The position numbers were made by a program, and so were the translations under genes. Of a DNA stretch of 54,446 nucleotides, positions 831-7,659 are shown in pieces. The notes under the pieces were generated by a model. It was not told the origin of the DNA. It did not search any database and saw nothing but the letters and a program-made list of their open reading frames with translations. Source of the stretch: a virus. Its lineage: Duplodnaviria; Caudoviricetes. Every line of letters begins with the position of its first letter. Position 1 is the stretch's first letter. Location: the IMG/VR virus record IMGVR_UViG_3300046171_000011, positions 1 through 54,446 of that record; one strand, written 5' to 3'.

Positions 831-1116
831 GAATATACAGAGCAAAAGATTACTGCATGGCTCTTAAAATATAGTGGTAACAAAACTAAATATGCTACAG
901 CGTGGGTGTTGCGACCCATTACTACAAGTCAGTGGATGCTGACGTGCGACCAAACCAGCCACTTAAGGAACGGCATGATGAAGAAACCCGATAGGCGCAT
1001 TGCGTCTTTGAGCAAGGGTGGATAGTGTCGGATGTAATAGTCTGTGATGCTTCTGCAATGGGGCTTGTGAGTTGTGTACGTTTGTTGGCGATGGCTTCCG
1101 ATAGGGTGTCTGCTGT

Positions 1117-1209
1117 TGTATTTCTTGGACGCATCTAGTCTAACGGTTCAAAGCCGCATATGCTTGACATATGGGATAAATTATAATTAGATGCGTCTTA
1201 CTAAATACA
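1117..1209 (+). other. Long branched stem-loop (possible RNase III-type processing site or ncRNA)
   Basis: GACGCATCTAGT (1128-1139) pairs with ATTAGATGCGTC (1186-1197); outer stem TGTATTT/AAATACA; two internal hairpins. Confidence 0.5.
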
Positions 1210-1214
1210 GCTAT

Positions 1215-1308
1215 CGGGAGGCCGTTGGTACGGATAGTCTTGACTATGGCAAAACAGTCAAGAGCCTATTTGTCTAGGTGAGCAGGTTCAATTCCTGCCC
1301 TCCTGCCA
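1215..1308 (+). ncRNA. tRNA-like RNA with a non-canonical anticodon arm
   Basis: Acceptor stem CGGGAGG/CCTCCTG followed by CCA; T arm GCAGG-TTCAATT-CCTGC; mini D arm CCGT-TGGT-ACGG; extended arm ATAG-TCTTGACT/AGTCAAGA-GC-CTAT. Confidence 0.7.
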
Positions 1309-1326
1309 GATCAAAAGAGGTAAGAC

Positions 1327-1533
1327 ATGGATAACAATACACAGAGCGAAACCTTTTGGATTGTCAGAAAATGGTTTGAAGATGATAATGATATCCAAGA
1401 CGTAAATGACTACGAAAAGCATTGGTCTTTTGCATCTGCTGAATGTGCCTTGTCAGAAGAATGGCACAATGGCTATGATAAAGGCTTGACAGGTAAAATA
1501 TTTGAAGTTAAAGCAACTTATACATGGGAGTAG
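1327..1533 (+). CDS. Acidic hypothetical protein
   Basis: ORF with a GAGGT RBS. Confidence 0.7.
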   Translation: MDNNTQSETFWIVRKWFEDDNDIQDVNDYEKHWSFASAECALSEEWHNGYDKGLTGKIFEVKATYTWE

Positions 1534-1537
1534 ACAC

Positions 1538-2125
1538 ATGACACAATATACTAGAAACATCTTGAAAGTTTTCAATCAGGCTACACAGTCAGAGATAGAC
1601 CACGGCTTGACATGGTACGCTGACGCCAAGAGCAAAGCGCAAGAAATGGCTGACTATCTAGAATTGCCTTTGCATATTGTAGTAGGTGTGATCGCTGCGC
1701 TTAGTCCCACAAACAAATGGGAACGCAATTTAAAAGATGCATATGATATGCTACATACTTTTACTGCAGGTGGATACGTTGAAGACTGCAGGCCATGTAC
1801 ATACAAAACCATGCGTGACAAGGCTTGGTCAATATTGACTACCATGCCACACAATAATGATGATACTGCATTCATCTTGAATGGTGCTAAGATCACAGAC
1901 TTTTTCTACTGCATCATGGGCGAAGATGTATGCGTCATAGATGGACATGCTTGGTGCATCGCTAACAATGACCGCCGCACCATGCAGGAAGTCCCTAACA
2001 TCGGCAAAAAGCTAAGGCAAGATTTACAGACCTGCTACAGTCGGGCAGGTAAAAAGCATGGCATGACTGCATACGAAATGCAAGCCGCAACATGGGTAAC
2101 ATGGAAGCGCATTCATAACGTGTGA
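1538..2125 (+). CDS. Conserved phage protein (DUF7178-like), possible HhH-type DNA glycosylase-like fold
   Basis: Motifs WY..., GVIAALSP...W..N, GAKITDF, VCVIDGHA and MQAATW; ATG at 1538 has a GGAG RBS. Confidence 0.65.
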   Translation: MTQYTRNILKVFNQATQSEIDHGLTWYADAKSKAQEMADYLELPLHIVVGVIAALSPTNKWERNLKDAYDMLHTFTAGGYVEDCRPCTYKTMRDKAWSILTTMPHNNDDTAFILNGAKITDFFYCIMGEDVCVIDGHAWCIANNDRRTMQEVPNIGKKLRQDLQTCYSRAGKKHGMTAYEMQAATWVTWKRIHNV

Positions 2126-2831: not shown

Positions 2832-3020
2832 ATGCAAATCACTATGGAATCTATGCTGACAGGTAACGTATCCACTATGGATATTGATGTGACCTTAGAG
2901 CAACTAGAGGCATGGCATAACGGTATGCTAATTCAAGAGGCGATGCCACACTTGACAACACATGAGAGAGAGTTTATCAAGACAGGCATAACACAAGAAG
3001 AATGGGACACAGCGTTATGA
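2832..3020 (+). CDS. Small phage protein, paralog of 7414-7659
   Basis: Shared motif DIDVT.EQ...W..G..IQ.AMP.LT..ER.FI..G.T.EEW; AGGAG RBS. Confidence 0.8.
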   Translation: MQITMESMLTGNVSTMDIDVTLEQLEAWHNGMLIQEAMPHLTTHEREFIKTGITQEEWDTAL

Positions 3021-3754: not shown

Positions 3755-4002
3755 TGACACAAGTAAGCATGAATGAAATAAAAGCAGTAGCCTACATGAA
3801 CCAGAACATGAGCCTACCTATCCGCATATGGGCTAAGAACTTAGACATGACACAAAACAAAACGGCTTCATTGTATGCCAAGTACGTCAAGCTAGGTGTG
3901 ATCAATGCCAAAGGCCACAACAGAGAGCGTTGCAGAAAGATTGCTCAGATGCACAAAGCTAAATTTGAATATGAGCAACTCAAGCAAGAGCTTCAGTTTT
4001 AA
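3754..4002 (+). CDS. Hypothetical protein (possible HTH)
   Basis: Translationally coupled ORF with a GGAGACA RBS. Confidence 0.65.
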   Translation: MTQVSMNEIKAVAYMNQNMSLPIRIWAKNLDMTQNKTASLYAKYVKLGVINAKGHNRERCRKIAQMHKAKFEYEQLKQELQF

Positions 4003-4029
4003 TATTGAACAGTTAAGAGGAGACAAAAA

Positions 4030-4404
4030 GTGACAACGTTTAGCAGAGAAGAACTAAAAGCAATTCGTGTAGCAATGCAGGATGCACTAGATGCGCTTGA
4101 CATTGATGTCACAATCAAGGTAGGCAACTGTACCTATGACGGTGGCGAGGCTAAGTATACAGTCAAGCTAGTGAAGCAAGGCGCAGTGACACAAGAAGAA
4201 AGTGCTATGACTTTTTGGGCAGATACTATGCACCTTGACACAAACAAGATCGCTAAGATCAATGGACAAAGTGTCACATTGCATAGCTATAAAAGCAAAG
4301 CTAAGAAGTATCCATGGATCGTTGCAAGCCTGACAACAGACAGCAAGTGGAAGCTATCAGATAGTCAGGTCAAGCGTATGTTTAGTAAGGAGACAGTAGC
4401 ATGA
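4030..4404 (+). CDS. Hypothetical protein
   Basis: GTG start with a GAGGAGACA RBS. Confidence 0.75.
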   Translation: MTTFSREELKAIRVAMQDALDALDIDVTIKVGNCTYDGGEAKYTVKLVKQGAVTQEESAMTFWADTMHLDTNKIAKINGQSVTLHSYKSKAKKYPWIVASLTTDSKWKLSDSQVKRMFSKETVA

Positions 4405-5707: not shown

Positions 5708-6625
5708 ATGAACATCCCCAAGAAAAATGCTAAGCTACAAGTTGTTGTAGACTTTTATCTGAACTCAAGAAAGTTTGCTAAGCTGAGTGGTTCAACTCAG
5801 AAAGACTACGAGTATCAGCTAGGTGTCGTATGCAATACAGTAGTGGAAGGTAAACGTCTTGGGGATTACACACTAAAAAACATAAAGGTGCGTCACCTGA
5901 CACAAGCATATGAGACATGGACTGAGACAGGTATACGCTCAGCTAACTATCGCCGGGATGTTCTTTCTGCTGCGTGGAAAAATGCAATGCGCTATGACGT
6001 TATGTCACACAACCCTGTTAGTTTAATAAAAGCAGAGGCATCAAAGGATCGCAGAGTATTCTGGACACGTGATCAGATTTCTGCTTTTCTTTCAACGGCT
6101 TACAGTAATTACAGTTGGCGCAGCATAGGTCTGATCTTACACATGGCATACGATTGGGGTCAGCGCTTAGGTGATATGCGTCTGCTTACATGGGATGCAC
6201 TAGACTTAGATGGGTGTCGCCTTGACATCACACAAAGCAAACGTAATGCAGAAGTACACTTGCCAATCGCATCTGATTTGTGTAAGATGCTGCAACAACA
6301 GAAGGAAGACTTTGGGTTTCAAGACTATGTAGCACCAAGAGTTAAGCCAAGGGCAGGTGCGTACACACCATACAACAAAGAAGAAATATCGCCACTTATC
6401 AATGAGGTACTAGAAGAAGCTAATCTACCACATGAACTTACTGGTATGGACTTGAGGCGTACTGCTGTGACTGAGATGATGGAAGGTGGTGCAAACATGA
6501 CAGAGATTATGCAGGTGACAGGCCATAAGAATATGGCATCACTGCGTCCTTACATGGTGAACACATTGAGTGGTGCATCAAAGGCTCTAGCAACCAGAGG
6601 TAATAATGAGGATGAACATTCGTGA
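5708..6625 (+). CDS. int: Tyrosine recombinase / integrase
   Basis: GQRLGD (Arg I), QSKR (Lys), DLRRT (Arg II), TGHKN and PY catalytic Tyr; N-terminal core-binding region. Confidence 0.9.
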   Translation: MNIPKKNAKLQVVVDFYLNSRKFAKLSGSTQKDYEYQLGVVCNTVVEGKRLGDYTLKNIKVRHLTQAYETWTETGIRSANYRRDVLSAAWKNAMRYDVMSHNPVSLIKAEASKDRRVFWTRDQISAFLSTAYSNYSWRSIGLILHMAYDWGQRLGDMRLLTWDALDLDGCRLDITQSKRNAEVHLPIASDLCKMLQQQKEDFGFQDYVAPRVKPRAGAYTPYNKEEISPLINEVLEEANLPHELTGMDLRRTAVTEMMEGGANMTEIMQVTGHKNMASLRPYMVNTLSGASKALATRGNNEDEHS

Positions 6626-7427
6626 ATACGTAGATGGCTTAGGCTTGCGTGATGGCGAAAGCTATAGAGGCAACTGCCCTGAGTGCCGTGGTAAGAATAC
6701 CTTCACTGCATACAACGACTATGGTACACTCAAGTACAACTGCTTCAAGCTGATGTGCAGGGTGGGTGGGCTATACAACACAGACATGACAGCAGCAGAG
6801 ATAATGATGCGGCTATCACCTAGACAGCAAGCGCCTGAGAAAGAGGTAGAGACTATGGAAATACCTGCCTACATGGTACAACCTAACACAGAACACCCGG
6901 AGTTTCACAGATTTGTTAAGCGTTGGGGTTTGCCTACATCTGATCTTATGTACGACCTAGTACAGCAGCGTGTAGTGTTTCCTATACGACATAAAGGACG
7001 CATCATTGATGCTGTAGGTAGAGCAGTAGGTGTAAAGAAACAACCTAAGTGGTATCGCTACACAGGCAAGGCAGGGTACTACACGTGTGGCACAGGTAGC
7101 ACTGCTCTTATAGTAGAGGATGTAGTGTCAGCTATCGTAGCAGCGCAGGAAGTACCTGACATCACAGCTATAGCTATTCTAGGTACATCACTTACACCTA
7201 AGCATATGGAAAAAATATCTGAGTATGACAATATAATTATTGCTCTTGATCCAGACGCAGTGTATAAGACAATAGAGTATCGCAGAGAGATAGAGTTATG
7301 GACAGGAACAAAGACAATAGCTATGAATGTGTCTGATGATATTAAGTATCGCACACCAGAGGATATATCTAAGTTGAAAGGCTTGGTAGGATTACAGCAA
7401 CAAGGAGATAAAGATGAAGCTAACTAG
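6612..7427 (+). CDS. DNA primase (zinc finger + TOPRIM)
   Basis: CPEC...CFKLMC zinc finger; IVEDVVSA and ALDPDA TOPRIM motifs. Confidence 0.9.
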   Translation: MNIREYVDGLGLRDGESYRGNCPECRGKNTFTAYNDYGTLKYNCFKLMCRVGGLYNTDMTAAEIMMRLSPRQQAPEKEVETMEIPAYMVQPNTEHPEFHRFVKRWGLPTSDLMYDLVQQRVVFPIRHKGRIIDAVGRAVGVKKQPKWYRYTGKAGYYTCGTGSTALIVEDVVSAIVAAQEVPDITAIAILGTSLTPKHMEKISEYDNIIIALDPDAVYKTIEYRREIELWTGTKTIAMNVSDDIKYRTPEDISKLKGLVGLQQQGDKDEAN

Positions 7428-7659
7428 GATAAGCCCTCTGTCAGGTAAGAAGAACACCCTAGACATTGACGTAACTAGAGAACAGATTACTGATTGGGAA
7501 AAAGGTGCAATGATCCAAGATGCAATGCCAAACTTGACACCAGATGAAAGGGATTTTATAAATATAGGTGTCACTGGTGAAGAGTGGACTGAACTCTTTG
7601 GTGATTTAGAAGAGGATTTTCCTGCACTGCAAGAGATTATAGGATTGCGAGGTACGTAG
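7414..7659 (+). CDS. Small phage protein, paralog of 2832-3020
   Basis: Shared IQ.AMP.LT..ER.FI..G.T.EEW motif. Confidence 0.8.
   Translation: MKLTRISPLSGKKNTLDIDVTREQITDWEKGAMIQDAMPNLTPDERDFINIGVTGEEWTELFGDLEEDFPALQEIIGLRGT

What the first reader, a model, noticed from the sequence alone, without database searches (positions are those of the whole stretch)
1215..1308. tRNA mimic with intact acceptor, T arm and CCA but a rebuilt anticodon arm
Seen: a 7-bp acceptor stem (one G-U) followed directly by CCA with no spare discriminator base, a perfect T arm (GCAGG-UUCAAUU-CCUGC) and a 4-bp D stem with a 4-nt UGGU loop and no U8/A9 linker. In place of the 5-bp/7-nt anticodon arm there is a ~12-bp stem with a 10-nt loop (AUGGCAAAAC), so normal decoding is unlikely. 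It lies in the earliest-transcribed region. Inference: it could be a decoy for tRNA-targeting defences or synthetases, an RNase P/Z processing signal for the early mRNA, or an attP-related relic, since the T arm resembles tRNA 3' ends used by tyrosine integrases.
Basis: partly seen in the sequence, partly recalled or inferred. Interest (0 to 1): 0.78.

Follow-up and report, generated by a model that had tools for sequence, protein, structure and literature searches.

The report
Non-decoding tRNA-shaped RNA in roseophages
Some marine phages carry a small, well-conserved RNA gene that is shaped like a tRNA, but its codon-reading loop is rebuilt and matches a neighbouring loop, so it probably imitates a tRNA rather than translating; its job is unknown.

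Summary
The tRNA-like element at 1215-1308 is real. It belongs to a conserved RNA family that is not in Rfam. I found 25 copies (12 distinct sequences, at most 21 separate contigs) in uncultured marine viral and metagenome contigs. Two unrelated roseophage-like lineages carry it: the window's HMO-2011 type and a Naomviridae-like type. Within the HMO-2011 type it sits in two different intergenic slots.

Compensatory changes support all five helices: 7-bp acceptor, 4-bp D stem with a UGGU loop, 8-9-bp 'anticodon' stem, 5-bp variable arm and T arm.

The encoded CCA is not conserved.

New here: the 8-10-nt 'anticodon' loop is complementary over 6 bp to the variable-arm loop in all 12 variants, with co-varying changes. 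It is therefore not a decoder.

ARAGORN and Rfam do not call it a tRNA. No host-tRNA identity was found, so the attP reading is not supported.

Function is inferred only: a tRNA mimic, probably cut out of early transcripts. Expression is not shown.

An earlier scan note (e1-5360867) describes a different phage tRNA mimic that also pairs its own anticodon loop.

The parts
1215..1221 (+). Acceptor-like stem, 5' strand (CGGGAGG)
   Evidence: Pairs with 1299-1305. In this helix 4 of 7 pairs show changes on both sides in the family.
1222..1233 (+). D arm: 4-bp stem CCGU/ACGG with the invariant loop UGGU. No position 8/9 linker.
   Evidence: UGGU is invariant in all 12 variants. The stem co-varies: first pair C-G, A-U or G-C by direct reading. 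The model alignment shifts the window-type rows by one column, so understates this helix.
1234..1237 (+). Linker AUAG between D stem and the long stem (3 nt, UAA/UAG, in the other lineages)
1238..1263 (+). Rebuilt 'anticodon' arm: stem UCUUGACU/AGUCAAGA (8 bp here; a 9th pair in 6 of 12 variants) with loop A-UGGCAAAA-C
   Evidence: Pairs 28-45 and 29-44 of alignment A3 change on both sides. The outer UCU/AGA pairs never vary.
1248..1253 (+). Loop bases GGCAAA, complementary to the variable-arm loop
   Evidence: G1248-C1274, G1249-U1273, C1250-G1272, A1251-U1271, A1252-U1270, A1253-U1269. All 72 cells pair in the 12 variants. One pair is AU in 6 and UA in 6.
1264..1279 (+). Variable arm: stem GCCUA/UAGGU with 6-nt loop UUUGUC (1269-1274)
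   Evidence: 100% of cells paired, one pair C-G/U-A, one G-U/A-U.
1282..1298 (+). T arm GCAGG-UUCAAUU-CCUGC
   Evidence: Three of 5 pairs change on both sides. The loop is UUCRAUU and the G-C pair closing the loop is kept in all 12.
1299..1308 (+). Acceptor-like stem, 3' strand (CCUCCUG), plus CCA
   Evidence: CCA is not conserved in the family.
1210..1537 (+). Block (element plus a 68-aa ORF at 1327-1533) that is present in the window but absent from close relatives
   Evidence: In L035, L003 and L017 similarity to the window runs to 1209 (L035) or 1213 (L003, L017) and then stops. In L035 the DUF7178 gene start follows about 15 nt after the shared leader.

Best explanation
Shown: this is a gene for a roughly 92-nt, tRNA-derived but non-decoding RNA. 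It is an accessory ('moron'-like) module in some marine roseophage-like viruses.

It keeps the parts of a tRNA that make the acceptor/T-arm stack and the D-loop/T-loop elbow:
- a 7-bp acceptor stem;
- a UGGU D loop with the two G's;
- a UUCRAUU T loop.

The lower half is rebuilt. The 'anticodon' stem is 8-9 bp long, and the middle six bases of its loop are complementary to the whole 6-nt loop of the adjacent variable arm. This leaves no free anticodon.

Inferred: the element lies on the coding strand between early genes, 2-3 nt after an upstream stop codon or directly after the early leader, and usually about 10 nt before the next ribosome-binding site. I therefore expect it to be transcribed as part of the early polycistronic RNA and cut out by the host's tRNA-processing enzymes (RNase P at the 5' side, a 3' endonuclease at the other).

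Inferred: the released RNA acts as a tRNA look-alike. The generic upper half would be the handle for host tRNA-binding factors. The strongly conserved lower half would carry the specific function, such as binding one partner or pairing with other copies.

My odds:
- about 0.9 that it is a real, selected, non-decoding tRNA-like RNA;
- about 0.6 that the two loops pair;
- about 0.4 that it is excised and acts in trans as a mimic or decoy.
For: Conservation and structure:
- 25 copies, 12 distinct, score 82.5-109.7 bits against model R1.
- 93.1% of pair cells form standard pairs, against 82.1% in shuffles and 39-48% with slid partners. Twelve pairs change on both sides; 0 of 500 shuffles reach this.
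- 11 of 12 variants fold alone into the same five-arm shape.

Loop-loop complementarity:
- 6 pairs, 72 of 72 cells paired, against 21-56% with slid partners; 1 of 500 shuffles reaches the observed value.
- Pair types: AU 6 / UA 6; GU 7 / GC 3 / AU 2; CG 11 / UG 1.
- Random loops pair fully in 1.2% of trials.

Not a decoder:
- ARAGORN gives 0 calls. Forced calls give inconsistent anticodons.
- Rfam tRNA-clan hits reach only 21-23 bits, below the gathering scores of 29 and 47.

The lower half is the most conserved part. The variable arm and UCU/AGA are nearly invariant, while the acceptor and T stems drift with compensation.

Mobility:
- Absent from close relatives at the same spot.
- Found in two slots of HMO-2011-type genomes and in Naomviridae-like contigs.

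Context:
- The element sits tightly between same-strand ORFs.
- Cultured relative CRP-13 carries an ordinary tRNA-Arg(TCT) between small early ORFs. This shows that this early region hosts tRNA genes embedded in operons.
Against: - Expression and processing are not shown. The one RNA-library contig that covers the element (run X15, 1163-1313, identical) is read-length and also covers the supposed -35 box, so it may be DNA or read-through.
- The 3' end is not tRNA-like in half of the variants: there is no CCA, and the discriminator base varies (A, C, U, G).
- In the Naomviridae-like copies (L041, L049) the terminal helix continues 2-3 bp beyond the tRNA-like ends. This would hinder RNase P and suggests the 'acceptor' may be only a closing helix.
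- Support for the loop-loop helix rests on few independent events. The AU/UA swap splits by clade, so it is probably one event. For the A/U-rich window-type loops, 7-16% of loop shuffles also pair fully, and the duplexes are weak at -4.1 to -6.9 kcal/mol.
- Ten of 12 variants could instead read the middle of the loop as a GNRA tetraloop (GCAA/GUAA; my reading, with the extended stems seen).
- The search patterns fixed some loop bases (AA and A). This inflates the apparent invariance of columns 37, 38 and 40.
- No partner protein co-occurs consistently with the element.
Confidence: 0.45

Rival explanations
1. Cis-acting punctuation. The element works only as part of the mRNA. It would be a tRNA-shaped cleavage, stability or translation signal that separates or protects the flanking early cistrons, and the excised RNA has no role of its own.
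For: - It is always intergenic, on the coding strand, 2-3 nt after an upstream stop or after the leader.
- In most copies an A-rich stretch plus AAGGAG/AGAGG and a start codon follow within about 20 nt.
- No promoter or terminator was called beside the window's element, the only copy scanned.
- The downstream ORFs differ between copies, as expected for a portable cis module.
Against: - RNase P and 3' processing need only the acceptor/T stack and the elbow. Yet the most conserved parts are the long stem's ends, the variable arm and the two complementary loops.
- In L049/L061 no start codon with a ribosome-binding site follows closely.
Confidence: 0.25
2. Self-assembling RNA. The two complementary loops pair between molecules ('hand in hand'), joining tRNA-shaped units into dimers, rings or chains. 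This concerns how the loops pair and could coexist with the mimic reading.
For:
- By standard A-form geometry (my inference), a stacked 9 + 6 + 5 bp rod puts the two stem bases about 55 Angstrom apart. Closure within one molecule would then need a sharp kink.
- In a symmetric dimer the two rods (9+6+5 and 5+6+9) have equal length.
- The precedent is recalled, not tested here: phi29 pRNA and the bicoid 3' UTR.
Against: - There is no experimental or computational test here; ViennaRNA cannot model this kind of pairing.
- Four of 12 variants have tandem purine-purine mismatches in the long stem (pairs 27-46 and 28-45). These might allow a kink and closure within one molecule.
- The loop duplexes are weak.
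Confidence: 0.2
3. An unusual but chargeable tRNA (class II or tRNA-Sec-like) that is aminoacylated and used in special decoding or in a non-ribosomal reaction.
For: - It has a long variable arm, and its 4-nt UGGU D loop equals the Rfam tRNA-Sec consensus shown.
- Weak tRNA-Sec hits of 21 and 23.4 bits.
- Four of 12 variants encode CCA and two more encode ACC+N.
- Recalled: SerRS and LeuRS ignore the anticodon.
Against: - The acceptor/T stack is 7/5, not 8/5 or 9/4.
- The D stem is 4 bp, not 6, and there is no UCA anticodon.
- The discriminator base and the first acceptor pairs vary, with mismatches at 1:72 in 2 of 12 variants.
- The 8-9-bp stem and the paired loop cannot sit in the decoding site. 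This follows from established tRNA geometry and is my inference.
Confidence: 0.06
4. attP core or relic of integration into a host tRNA gene.
For: - The phage encodes a tyrosine integrase at 5708-6625.
- The T arm looks like a tRNA 3' end.
Against: - The 21-mer from the T loop to the end of the acceptor stem has 0 exact matches in the genome collection. The family pattern also has 0 matches.
- The 5' half of the cloverleaf is present and co-varies with the 3' half.
- The element occurs at three different genome positions.
- In the window it lies 4.4 kb from the integrase gene.
Confidence: 0.02
5. Decaying pseudo-tRNA without function.
For: - Distribution is sporadic: 2 of 37 loci fetched around DUF7178 homologues, and 2 of 12 loci around the Naomviridae-type anchor gene.
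- None of 8 cultured relatives has it.
Against: - Compensatory changes occur in every helix.
- The family is kept in two unrelated phage lineages.
- 11 of 12 variants fold into the same shape.
Confidence: 0.02

Closest known systems
Class II tRNAs (Rfam RF00005) and tRNA-Sec (RF01852)
   Same: 7-bp acceptor stem. 5-bp T stem with a UUCRAUU loop closed by a G-C pair. GG in the D loop. A long variable arm. The UGGU tetraloop matches the tRNA-Sec consensus D loop shown.
   Different: No bases 8/9. A 4-nt D loop on a 4-bp stem. A 3-4-nt linker after the D stem. An 8-9-bp 'anticodon' stem with an 8-10-nt loop and no fixed anticodon. Its loop is complementary to the variable loop. The 3' end varies. 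Scores are below the Rfam gathering scores and ARAGORN makes no call.
Non-decoding tRNA mimics: tmRNA tRNA-like domain, bacterial and phage YrlA Y RNAs (RF02553), mascRNA, phage T4 species 1 RNA (names recalled; YrlA paper PMC4201824 seen only in a search listing)
   Same: They keep the acceptor/T-arm and elbow look of a tRNA but do not read codons. Some are cut out by tRNA-processing enzymes.
   Different: No Rfam match to tmRNA or YrlA at E <= 10. The only mascRNA-menRNA row is a 15-nt, 12.1-bit match (E 8.1, gathering 42.5) in L036. ARAGORN makes no tmRNA call. No Ro60/Rsr gene was seen among the ORFs I scanned: 18 window proteins by Pfam, not the whole genome. The 5' and 3' ends are at the acceptor stem, unlike YrlA. 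The loop-loop lock is not a feature of those families.
phi29 pRNA (recalled, not tested)
   Same: A phage-encoded small RNA from the early end of the genome. It has two loops in one molecule that are complementary to each other.
   Different: pRNA is not tRNA-shaped. Its loops pair over 4 bp between molecules to form a ring on the packaging motor. Here intermolecular pairing is only a hypothesis, and the phage has an ordinary terminase.
Allo-tRNAs and other odd cloverleaves (Mukai et al., PMC5389517; abstract and three passages read)
   Same: tRNA-Sec-like features, long variable arms, occurrence in alphaproteobacterial phages, and a suggested role as regulatory non-coding RNAs.
   Different: Those have 8/4 or 9/3 acceptor/T stacks and, as I recall (not read), normal 7-nt anticodon loops. 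This family is 7/5, with the terminal helix extended outward in two variants, and has no usable anticodon loop.
Earlier scan note e1-5360867 (phage tRNA-Leu mimic whose enlarged variable arm pairs with its own anticodon loop)
   Same: The same design idea: a class II tRNA shape in a phage with the anticodon loop paired to the variable arm.
   Different: A different RNA. That one has a 130-nt knotted domain in the variable arm; here it is a plain 5-bp arm with a 6-nt loop. I did not compare the sequences.

Membership tests
tRNA (Rfam RF00005 / ARAGORN definition) | Reaches the curated score or is called by a tRNA finder | tested here: not met
   Rfam at gathering thresholds gives 0 matches. The best tRNA-clan scores are 21-23.4 bits against gathering scores of 29 (tRNA) and 47 (tRNA-Sec). 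ARAGORN in default and intron modes of 13 sequences. As a positive control, ARAGORN called tRNA-Trp, tRNA-Leu and tRNA-Arg in other loci.
tRNA (Rfam RF00005 / ARAGORN definition) | 5-bp anticodon stem with a 7-nt loop carrying a consistent anticodon | tested here: not met
   The stem is 8-9 bp and the loop 8-10 nt. Forced ARAGORN calls give His, Ala, Pro, Cys or undetermined for the 12 variants.
tRNA (Rfam RF00005 / ARAGORN definition) | Acceptor/T-arm stack, T loop UUCRAnn and D-loop GG | tested here: met
tRNA (Rfam RF00005 / ARAGORN definition) | Mature 3' discriminator base plus CCA, and aminoacylation | not testable with these tools
   CCA is encoded in only 4 of 12 variants. CCA addition and charging need experiments.
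tRNA-Sec (RF01852) | 13-bp acceptor/T stack (8/5 or 9/4), 6-bp D stem, UCA anticodon | tested here: not met
   7/5 stack in the window, 4-bp D stem, no UCA in the loop. Only the 4-nt UGGU D loop and the long variable arm agree.
Phage attP core in a tRNA gene | Sequence identity with the 3' part of a host tRNA gene | tested here: not met
   0 exact matches of the 21-mer (T loop to end of the acceptor stem) in one genome for each of 185,579 species. Only exact identity was tested.
Phage attP core in a tRNA gene | Lies beside the integrase gene at a fixed genome position | tested here: not met
   It lies 4.4 kb upstream of the integrase gene in the window. Three different contexts are seen among the copies.
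tmRNA / YrlA / other curated tRNA mimics | Match to the curated Rfam model, or a tag ORF, or an Rsr neighbour | tested here: not met
   No tmRNA or YrlA hit at E <= 10 on three variants; the only row for a curated mimic is a 12.1-bit mascRNA-menRNA match over 15 nt in L036. ARAGORN tmRNA mode of 13 sequences.
   This needs native gels, SEC-MALS or cryo-EM. I offer only a geometric argument.

The most novel reading that the evidence does not exclude
The two complementary loops pair between molecules rather than within one. The tRNA-shaped units would then join head to tail into dimers, rings or chains, much as phi29 pRNA does. The result would be a multivalent tRNA-like particle made early in infection of Roseobacter hosts. 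It could soak up, or scaffold, a host factor that recognises the tRNA elbow and acceptor end.
Probability: 0.2. Interest if true: 0.85.

Novelty: new variant of a known kind. Interest (0 to 1): 0.66.

Why it matters
Phage tRNA genes are usually explained by codon supply or, more recently, by escape from tRNA-cutting defences. This family keeps the tRNA silhouette under clear selection but has given up the anticodon. It has also moved between two unrelated roseophage lineages. That points to a job done by the shape itself.

It is small (about 92 nt) and easy to transcribe. It also offers a simple, testable feature: two loops with 6-bp complementarity. That makes it a good entry point for two questions:
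- What do non-decoding viral tRNA mimics bind?
- Can tRNA-shaped RNAs self-assemble?

The hosts, the Roseobacter group, are abundant marine bacteria with cultured phage-host pairs available for tests.

Tried and rejected
- Ordinary or intron-containing tRNA: rejected.
- tmRNA: rejected.
- Any curated Rfam family: none reached threshold on the window. Permissive scans of three variants gave only weak tRNA-clan hits plus scattered rows at E > 0.2.
- DNA similarity to 50,697 deposited phage records:
  - Window 900-1700: no match.
  - L041 copy: no match.
  - L036 copy: only a 32-nt T-arm match to tRNA-Lys genes of two Erwinia jumbo phages.
- Family model on whole records: CRP-207, CRP-603, CRP-2 and two related viral records gave 0 of 5. 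DSS3_PM1, DSS3_VP1, CRP-13, CRP-1 and HMO-2011 gave only a 17-bit hit, which ARAGORN calls tRNA-Arg.
- Exact 27-mer of the window's 3' end in viral contigs: 0 matches.
- My first two family patterns required 5-9 bases before GGTTC and so could not match window-type copies. The patterns corrected this.
- A looser pattern added only ordinary tRNA-Leu(UAA) genes.
- Bacterial and archaeal genomes: family pattern 0 matches, window 21-mer 0 matches. Both were exact-pattern scans, so diverged copies would be missed.
- More Naomviridae-like relatives around the upstream anchor gene: 10 further loci, 0 with the element.
- Expression: four RNA-labelled runs were laid as contigs.
  - X15 holds a 151-nt contig at 1163-1313 identical to the window. 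Contigs cannot show RNA ends, and DNA carry-over is possible.
  - X1 and X20 gave no cover of the element.
  - X19 holds a relative in which 1131-1306 is replaced by 70 other letters.
  - I draw no conclusion on transcription.
- A sigma-70 promoter at 1165-1195: not called, because the spacer is 12 nt.
- A consistent protein partner next to the element: none seen among same-strand ORFs of 13 loci.
- Literature:
  - 'HMO-2011' + 'tRNA-like': 0 papers.
  - 'tRNA-like' + 'roseophage': 0 papers.
  - Two broader searches listed nothing that describes this RNA.
  - I read passages of PMC11662646 (not relevant), PMC10690425 and PMC5389517.
  - PMC10690425 reports 8,495 candidate structured RNAs from IMG/VR in supplementary tables that I could not open, so this family may be listed there without a description.
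- Earlier scan notes were used as leads only.
Full report
WHAT THE WINDOW IS
The window is a whole, 99%-complete viral record of 54,446 bp. Its helicase is 72-75% identical to those of Roseobacter phages CRP-207, CRP-603 and CRP-2, and 59% to Puniceispirillum phage HMO-2011. The gene set fits that type:
- a DUF7178 protein, a tyrosine integrase and a primase;
- a thymidylate-synthase-like ORF, named only by its position in CRP-207;
- family A DNA polymerase, endonuclease I, class II ribonucleotide reductase, PhoH and terminase.
It is therefore an uncultured HMO-2011-type marine phage, probably of a Roseobacter-group host. The host is inferred from relatives only.

THE OBSERVATION
Direct reading and the MFE fold (-35.7 kcal/mol, z = -3.22, 0 of 200 shuffles as stable) confirm these parts:
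- a 7-bp acceptor-like stem, 1215-1221 / 1299-1305, with one G-U;
- CCA at 1306-1308 with no spare base before it;
- a D stem, 1222-1225 / 1230-1233, with loop UGGU and no 8/9 linker;
- a perfect T arm at 1282-1298.
The fold gives an 8-bp stem (1238-1245 / 1256-1263) with a 10-nt loop, plus a separate 5-bp variable arm (1264-1268 / 1275-1279) with a 6-nt loop.

ARAGORN finds no tRNA or tmRNA in the window. Rfam at gathering thresholds finds nothing. A permissive scan gives only tRNA-Sec at 21 bits, against a gathering score of 47.

HOMOLOGUES
Loci around relatives of the neighbouring DUF7178 gene (37 loci) showed two things.
- In the closest relatives (L035, L003, L017), similarity to the window runs through the upstream leader to position 1209 or 1213 and then stops. 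In L035 the DUF7178 start codon follows about 15 nt after the shared leader. So the element plus the 68-aa ORF (about 1210-1537) is an extra block in the window.
- L036 and L003 carry a recognisable copy of the element about 1 kb downstream of the DUF7178 gene instead.

Pattern scans of viral contigs and one scan of metagenome contigs yielded further copies. A covariance model (R1) was built from the first copies. In all there are 25 matches at 82.5-109.7 bits. These are 12 distinct sequences. At most 21 are separate contigs, because four contigs appear in both collections (equal lengths).

Ordinary tRNAs score far lower with R1: tRNA-Trp 18.5 bits, tRNA-Leu 22.5-26.6 bits, tRNA-Arg 17.2 bits.

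STRUCTURE
On the model-based alignment A3:
- 93.1% of pair cells are standard pairs, against 82.1 +/- 1.2% after shuffling and 39-48% with slid partners.
- 12 of 30 pairs change on both sides.
- 0 of 500 shuffles reach the observed values.
Every helix has at least one compensatory pair. The T stem has 3 of 5 and the acceptor 4 of 7.

The D stem's 87.5% is an underestimate. The alignment shifts the window-type rows by one inserted column. By direct reading, all 12 variants have 4 D-stem pairs, with C-G, A-U or G-C as the first pair.

Eleven of 12 variants fold on their own into the same five-arm shape; L003's MFE differs.

Invariant features are the UGGU D loop, the UUCRAUU T loop closed by a G-C pair, the outer UCU/AGA of the long stem, and almost the whole variable arm. 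These are the parts a tRNA uses for its elbow, together with a rebuilt lower half.

THE NEW POINT
The middle six bases of the 'anticodon' loop are complementary to the whole variable-arm loop. In the window, G1248-A1253 (GGCAAA) pairs with U1269-C1274 (UUUGUC).
- All 72 cells of these six pairs are standard pairs in the 12 variants, against 21-56% with slid partners. One of 500 shuffles reaches this.
- One pair is A-U in six variants and U-A in the other six. A second is G-U, G-C or A-U. A third is C-G or U-G.
- Random loops of this composition pair fully in 1.2% of trials.

Caveats:
- The A-U/U-A swap follows the clade split, so it is probably one event.
- For the A/U-rich window-type loops, 7-16% of loop shuffles also pair.
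- The duplexes are only -4.1 to -6.9 kcal/mol.
- My search patterns fixed three of the loop bases.
- Ten of 12 loops could alternatively be read as GNRA tetraloops.
I put the loop-loop pairing at about 0.6. Either way there is no conserved anticodon. When forced, ARAGORN names His, Ala, Pro, Cys or nothing for the different variants.

THE ENDS
The CCA is not a family feature. The tails are ACCA x2, CCAG x2, ACCU, ACCC, CAGG x4, UCUA and GUAU. In the L041 and L049 types the terminal helix continues 2-3 bp beyond the tRNA-like ends. This weakens, but does not exclude, tRNA-type end processing. It argues against a defined aminoacylation identity, because the discriminator base and the first pairs vary.

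DISTRIBUTION AND CONTEXT
The copies fall in three contexts:
- (a) Window type: directly after a conserved leader hairpin and the motif CTTACTAAATACA, before a small ORF.
- (b) L036/L003 type, also HMO-2011-like: 2-3 nt after the stop codon of a 125-aa gene. The window's homologue of that gene (4030-4404) has no element behind it.
- (c) L041/L049 type: contigs whose terminase is 68% identical to roseophages DSS3_PM1 and DSS3_VP1 of the Naomviridae. The element lies between the replication and structural genes.

In every case the element lies on the strand of densely packed flanking ORFs. Usually an A-rich stretch, a Shine-Dalgarno-like AAGGAG/AGAGG and a start codon follow within about 20 nt.

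The element is sporadic:
- 2 of 37 loci around DUF7178 homologues;
- 2 of 12 loci around the Naomviridae-type anchor gene;
- 0 of 8 cultured relatives scanned with the model;
- no similar DNA in 50,697 deposited phage records.

One relative in run X19 keeps the 68-aa ORF but replaces 1131-1306 with 70 other letters. Cultured relative CRP-13 has an ordinary, unannotated tRNA-Arg(TCT) between small early ORFs. The early region of these phages therefore does host tRNA genes inside operons.

WHAT IT IS NOT
- attP: the window's 21-mer from the T loop to the acceptor end, and the family pattern, both have no exact match in one genome for each of 185,579 prokaryote species. The 5' half is present and co-varies. 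The position is not fixed and is not next to the integrase gene.
- An ordinary, intron-containing or selenocysteine tRNA: the defining features were tested and not met (see the membership table).
- Protein-coding conservation does not explain the pattern, since the substitutions are compensatory in stems.

HOW IT MOST LIKELY WORKS (inference)
The RNA is probably made as part of early polycistronic transcripts. No promoter or terminator was called beside the window's element, the only copy scanned.

Its upper half offers what RNase P and other tRNA-handling proteins recognise. These are the stacked acceptor/T helices and the D/T elbow (established tRNA biology). I therefore expect excision to a stable RNA of about 90 nt.

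The lower half is more conserved than the upper half. A pure cleavage signal would not need it. I therefore favour a role for the released RNA as a tRNA mimic with a specific lower module (about 0.4) over a purely cis-acting punctuation signal (about 0.25).

How the loops meet is open. The two hairpins are directly adjacent, and the 6-nt loop is fully used. A stacked 9+6+5-bp arrangement would hold the stem bases about 55 Angstrom apart (A-form geometry, my estimate). Closure within one molecule would then need a kink. Only 4 of 12 variants have purine-purine mismatches in the stem that might provide one. Pairing between molecules, giving symmetric dimers or chains as in phi29 pRNA (recalled), is therefore a serious alternative (about 0.2).

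Expression is not shown. The only RNA-library contig over the element is read-length and also covers the upstream leader.

COMPARISON AND NOVELTY
The closest known things are class II tRNAs and tRNA-Sec (by shape) and the non-decoding tRNA mimics (by concept).

I found no description of this RNA. Searches for 'HMO-2011' + 'tRNA-like' and for 'tRNA-like' + 'roseophage' returned 0 papers. Two broader searches listed nothing relevant.

A large catalogue of viral candidate RNAs (PMC10690425; abstract and passages read) may contain it in supplements that I could not open.

The design principle may therefore recur.

I class this as a new variant of a known kind, the phage tRNA mimic: a new, covariation-supported family with an unusual loop-loop feature and no known function.

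Noticed in passing
window 1127-1198: A 13-bp hairpin (GACGCAUCUAGUC... / ...UUAGAUGCGUC) encloses the TTGACA/TATAAT-like boxes just upstream of the element. Relatives (L043, L045, L052, L054, L055 and L058) have a different sequence at the same place that, by eye, also forms a long hairpin, followed by the same CTTACTAAATACA motif. The boxes have a 12-nt spacer and the promoter scan did not call them. This may be a second structured leader element in two allelic forms.
   Followed up: partly
L075 1501-1577 (Roseobacter phage CRP-13 record, 3978-4054): An ordinary tRNA-Arg(TCT) lies between small early ORFs and is not annotated in the deposited record.
   Followed up: yes
window 1131-1306, contig of run X19: A 90-95% similar relative keeps the 68-aa ORF and the sequence upstream of 1130 but has 70 other letters in place of the leader hairpin and the element. 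The element and the ORF are therefore separable.
   Followed up: no
L041 4647-4720 and L042 259-332: The Naomviridae-like contigs that carry the element also carry an ordinary tRNA-Trp(CCA) about 2.5 kb upstream.
   Followed up: no
window 2832-3020 and 7414-7659; L041 4753-4956: A small protein family (motif ...MDIDVT.EQ...W..G..IQ.AMP...ER.FI.TG...EEW) occurs twice in the window and once in the unrelated L041-type contig. Function unknown.
   Followed up: no
window 4030-4404: In five relatives (L044, L053, L056, L060, L062) the homologue of this 124-aa gene (...VGNC.Y.GGE...) is the gene directly upstream of the element. In the window it is followed directly by the next ORF. This early region looks like a hot spot for inserted modules, including DNA methyltransferase-like ORFs in L053 and L062 (named from the sequence start only, not scanned).
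   Followed up: partly
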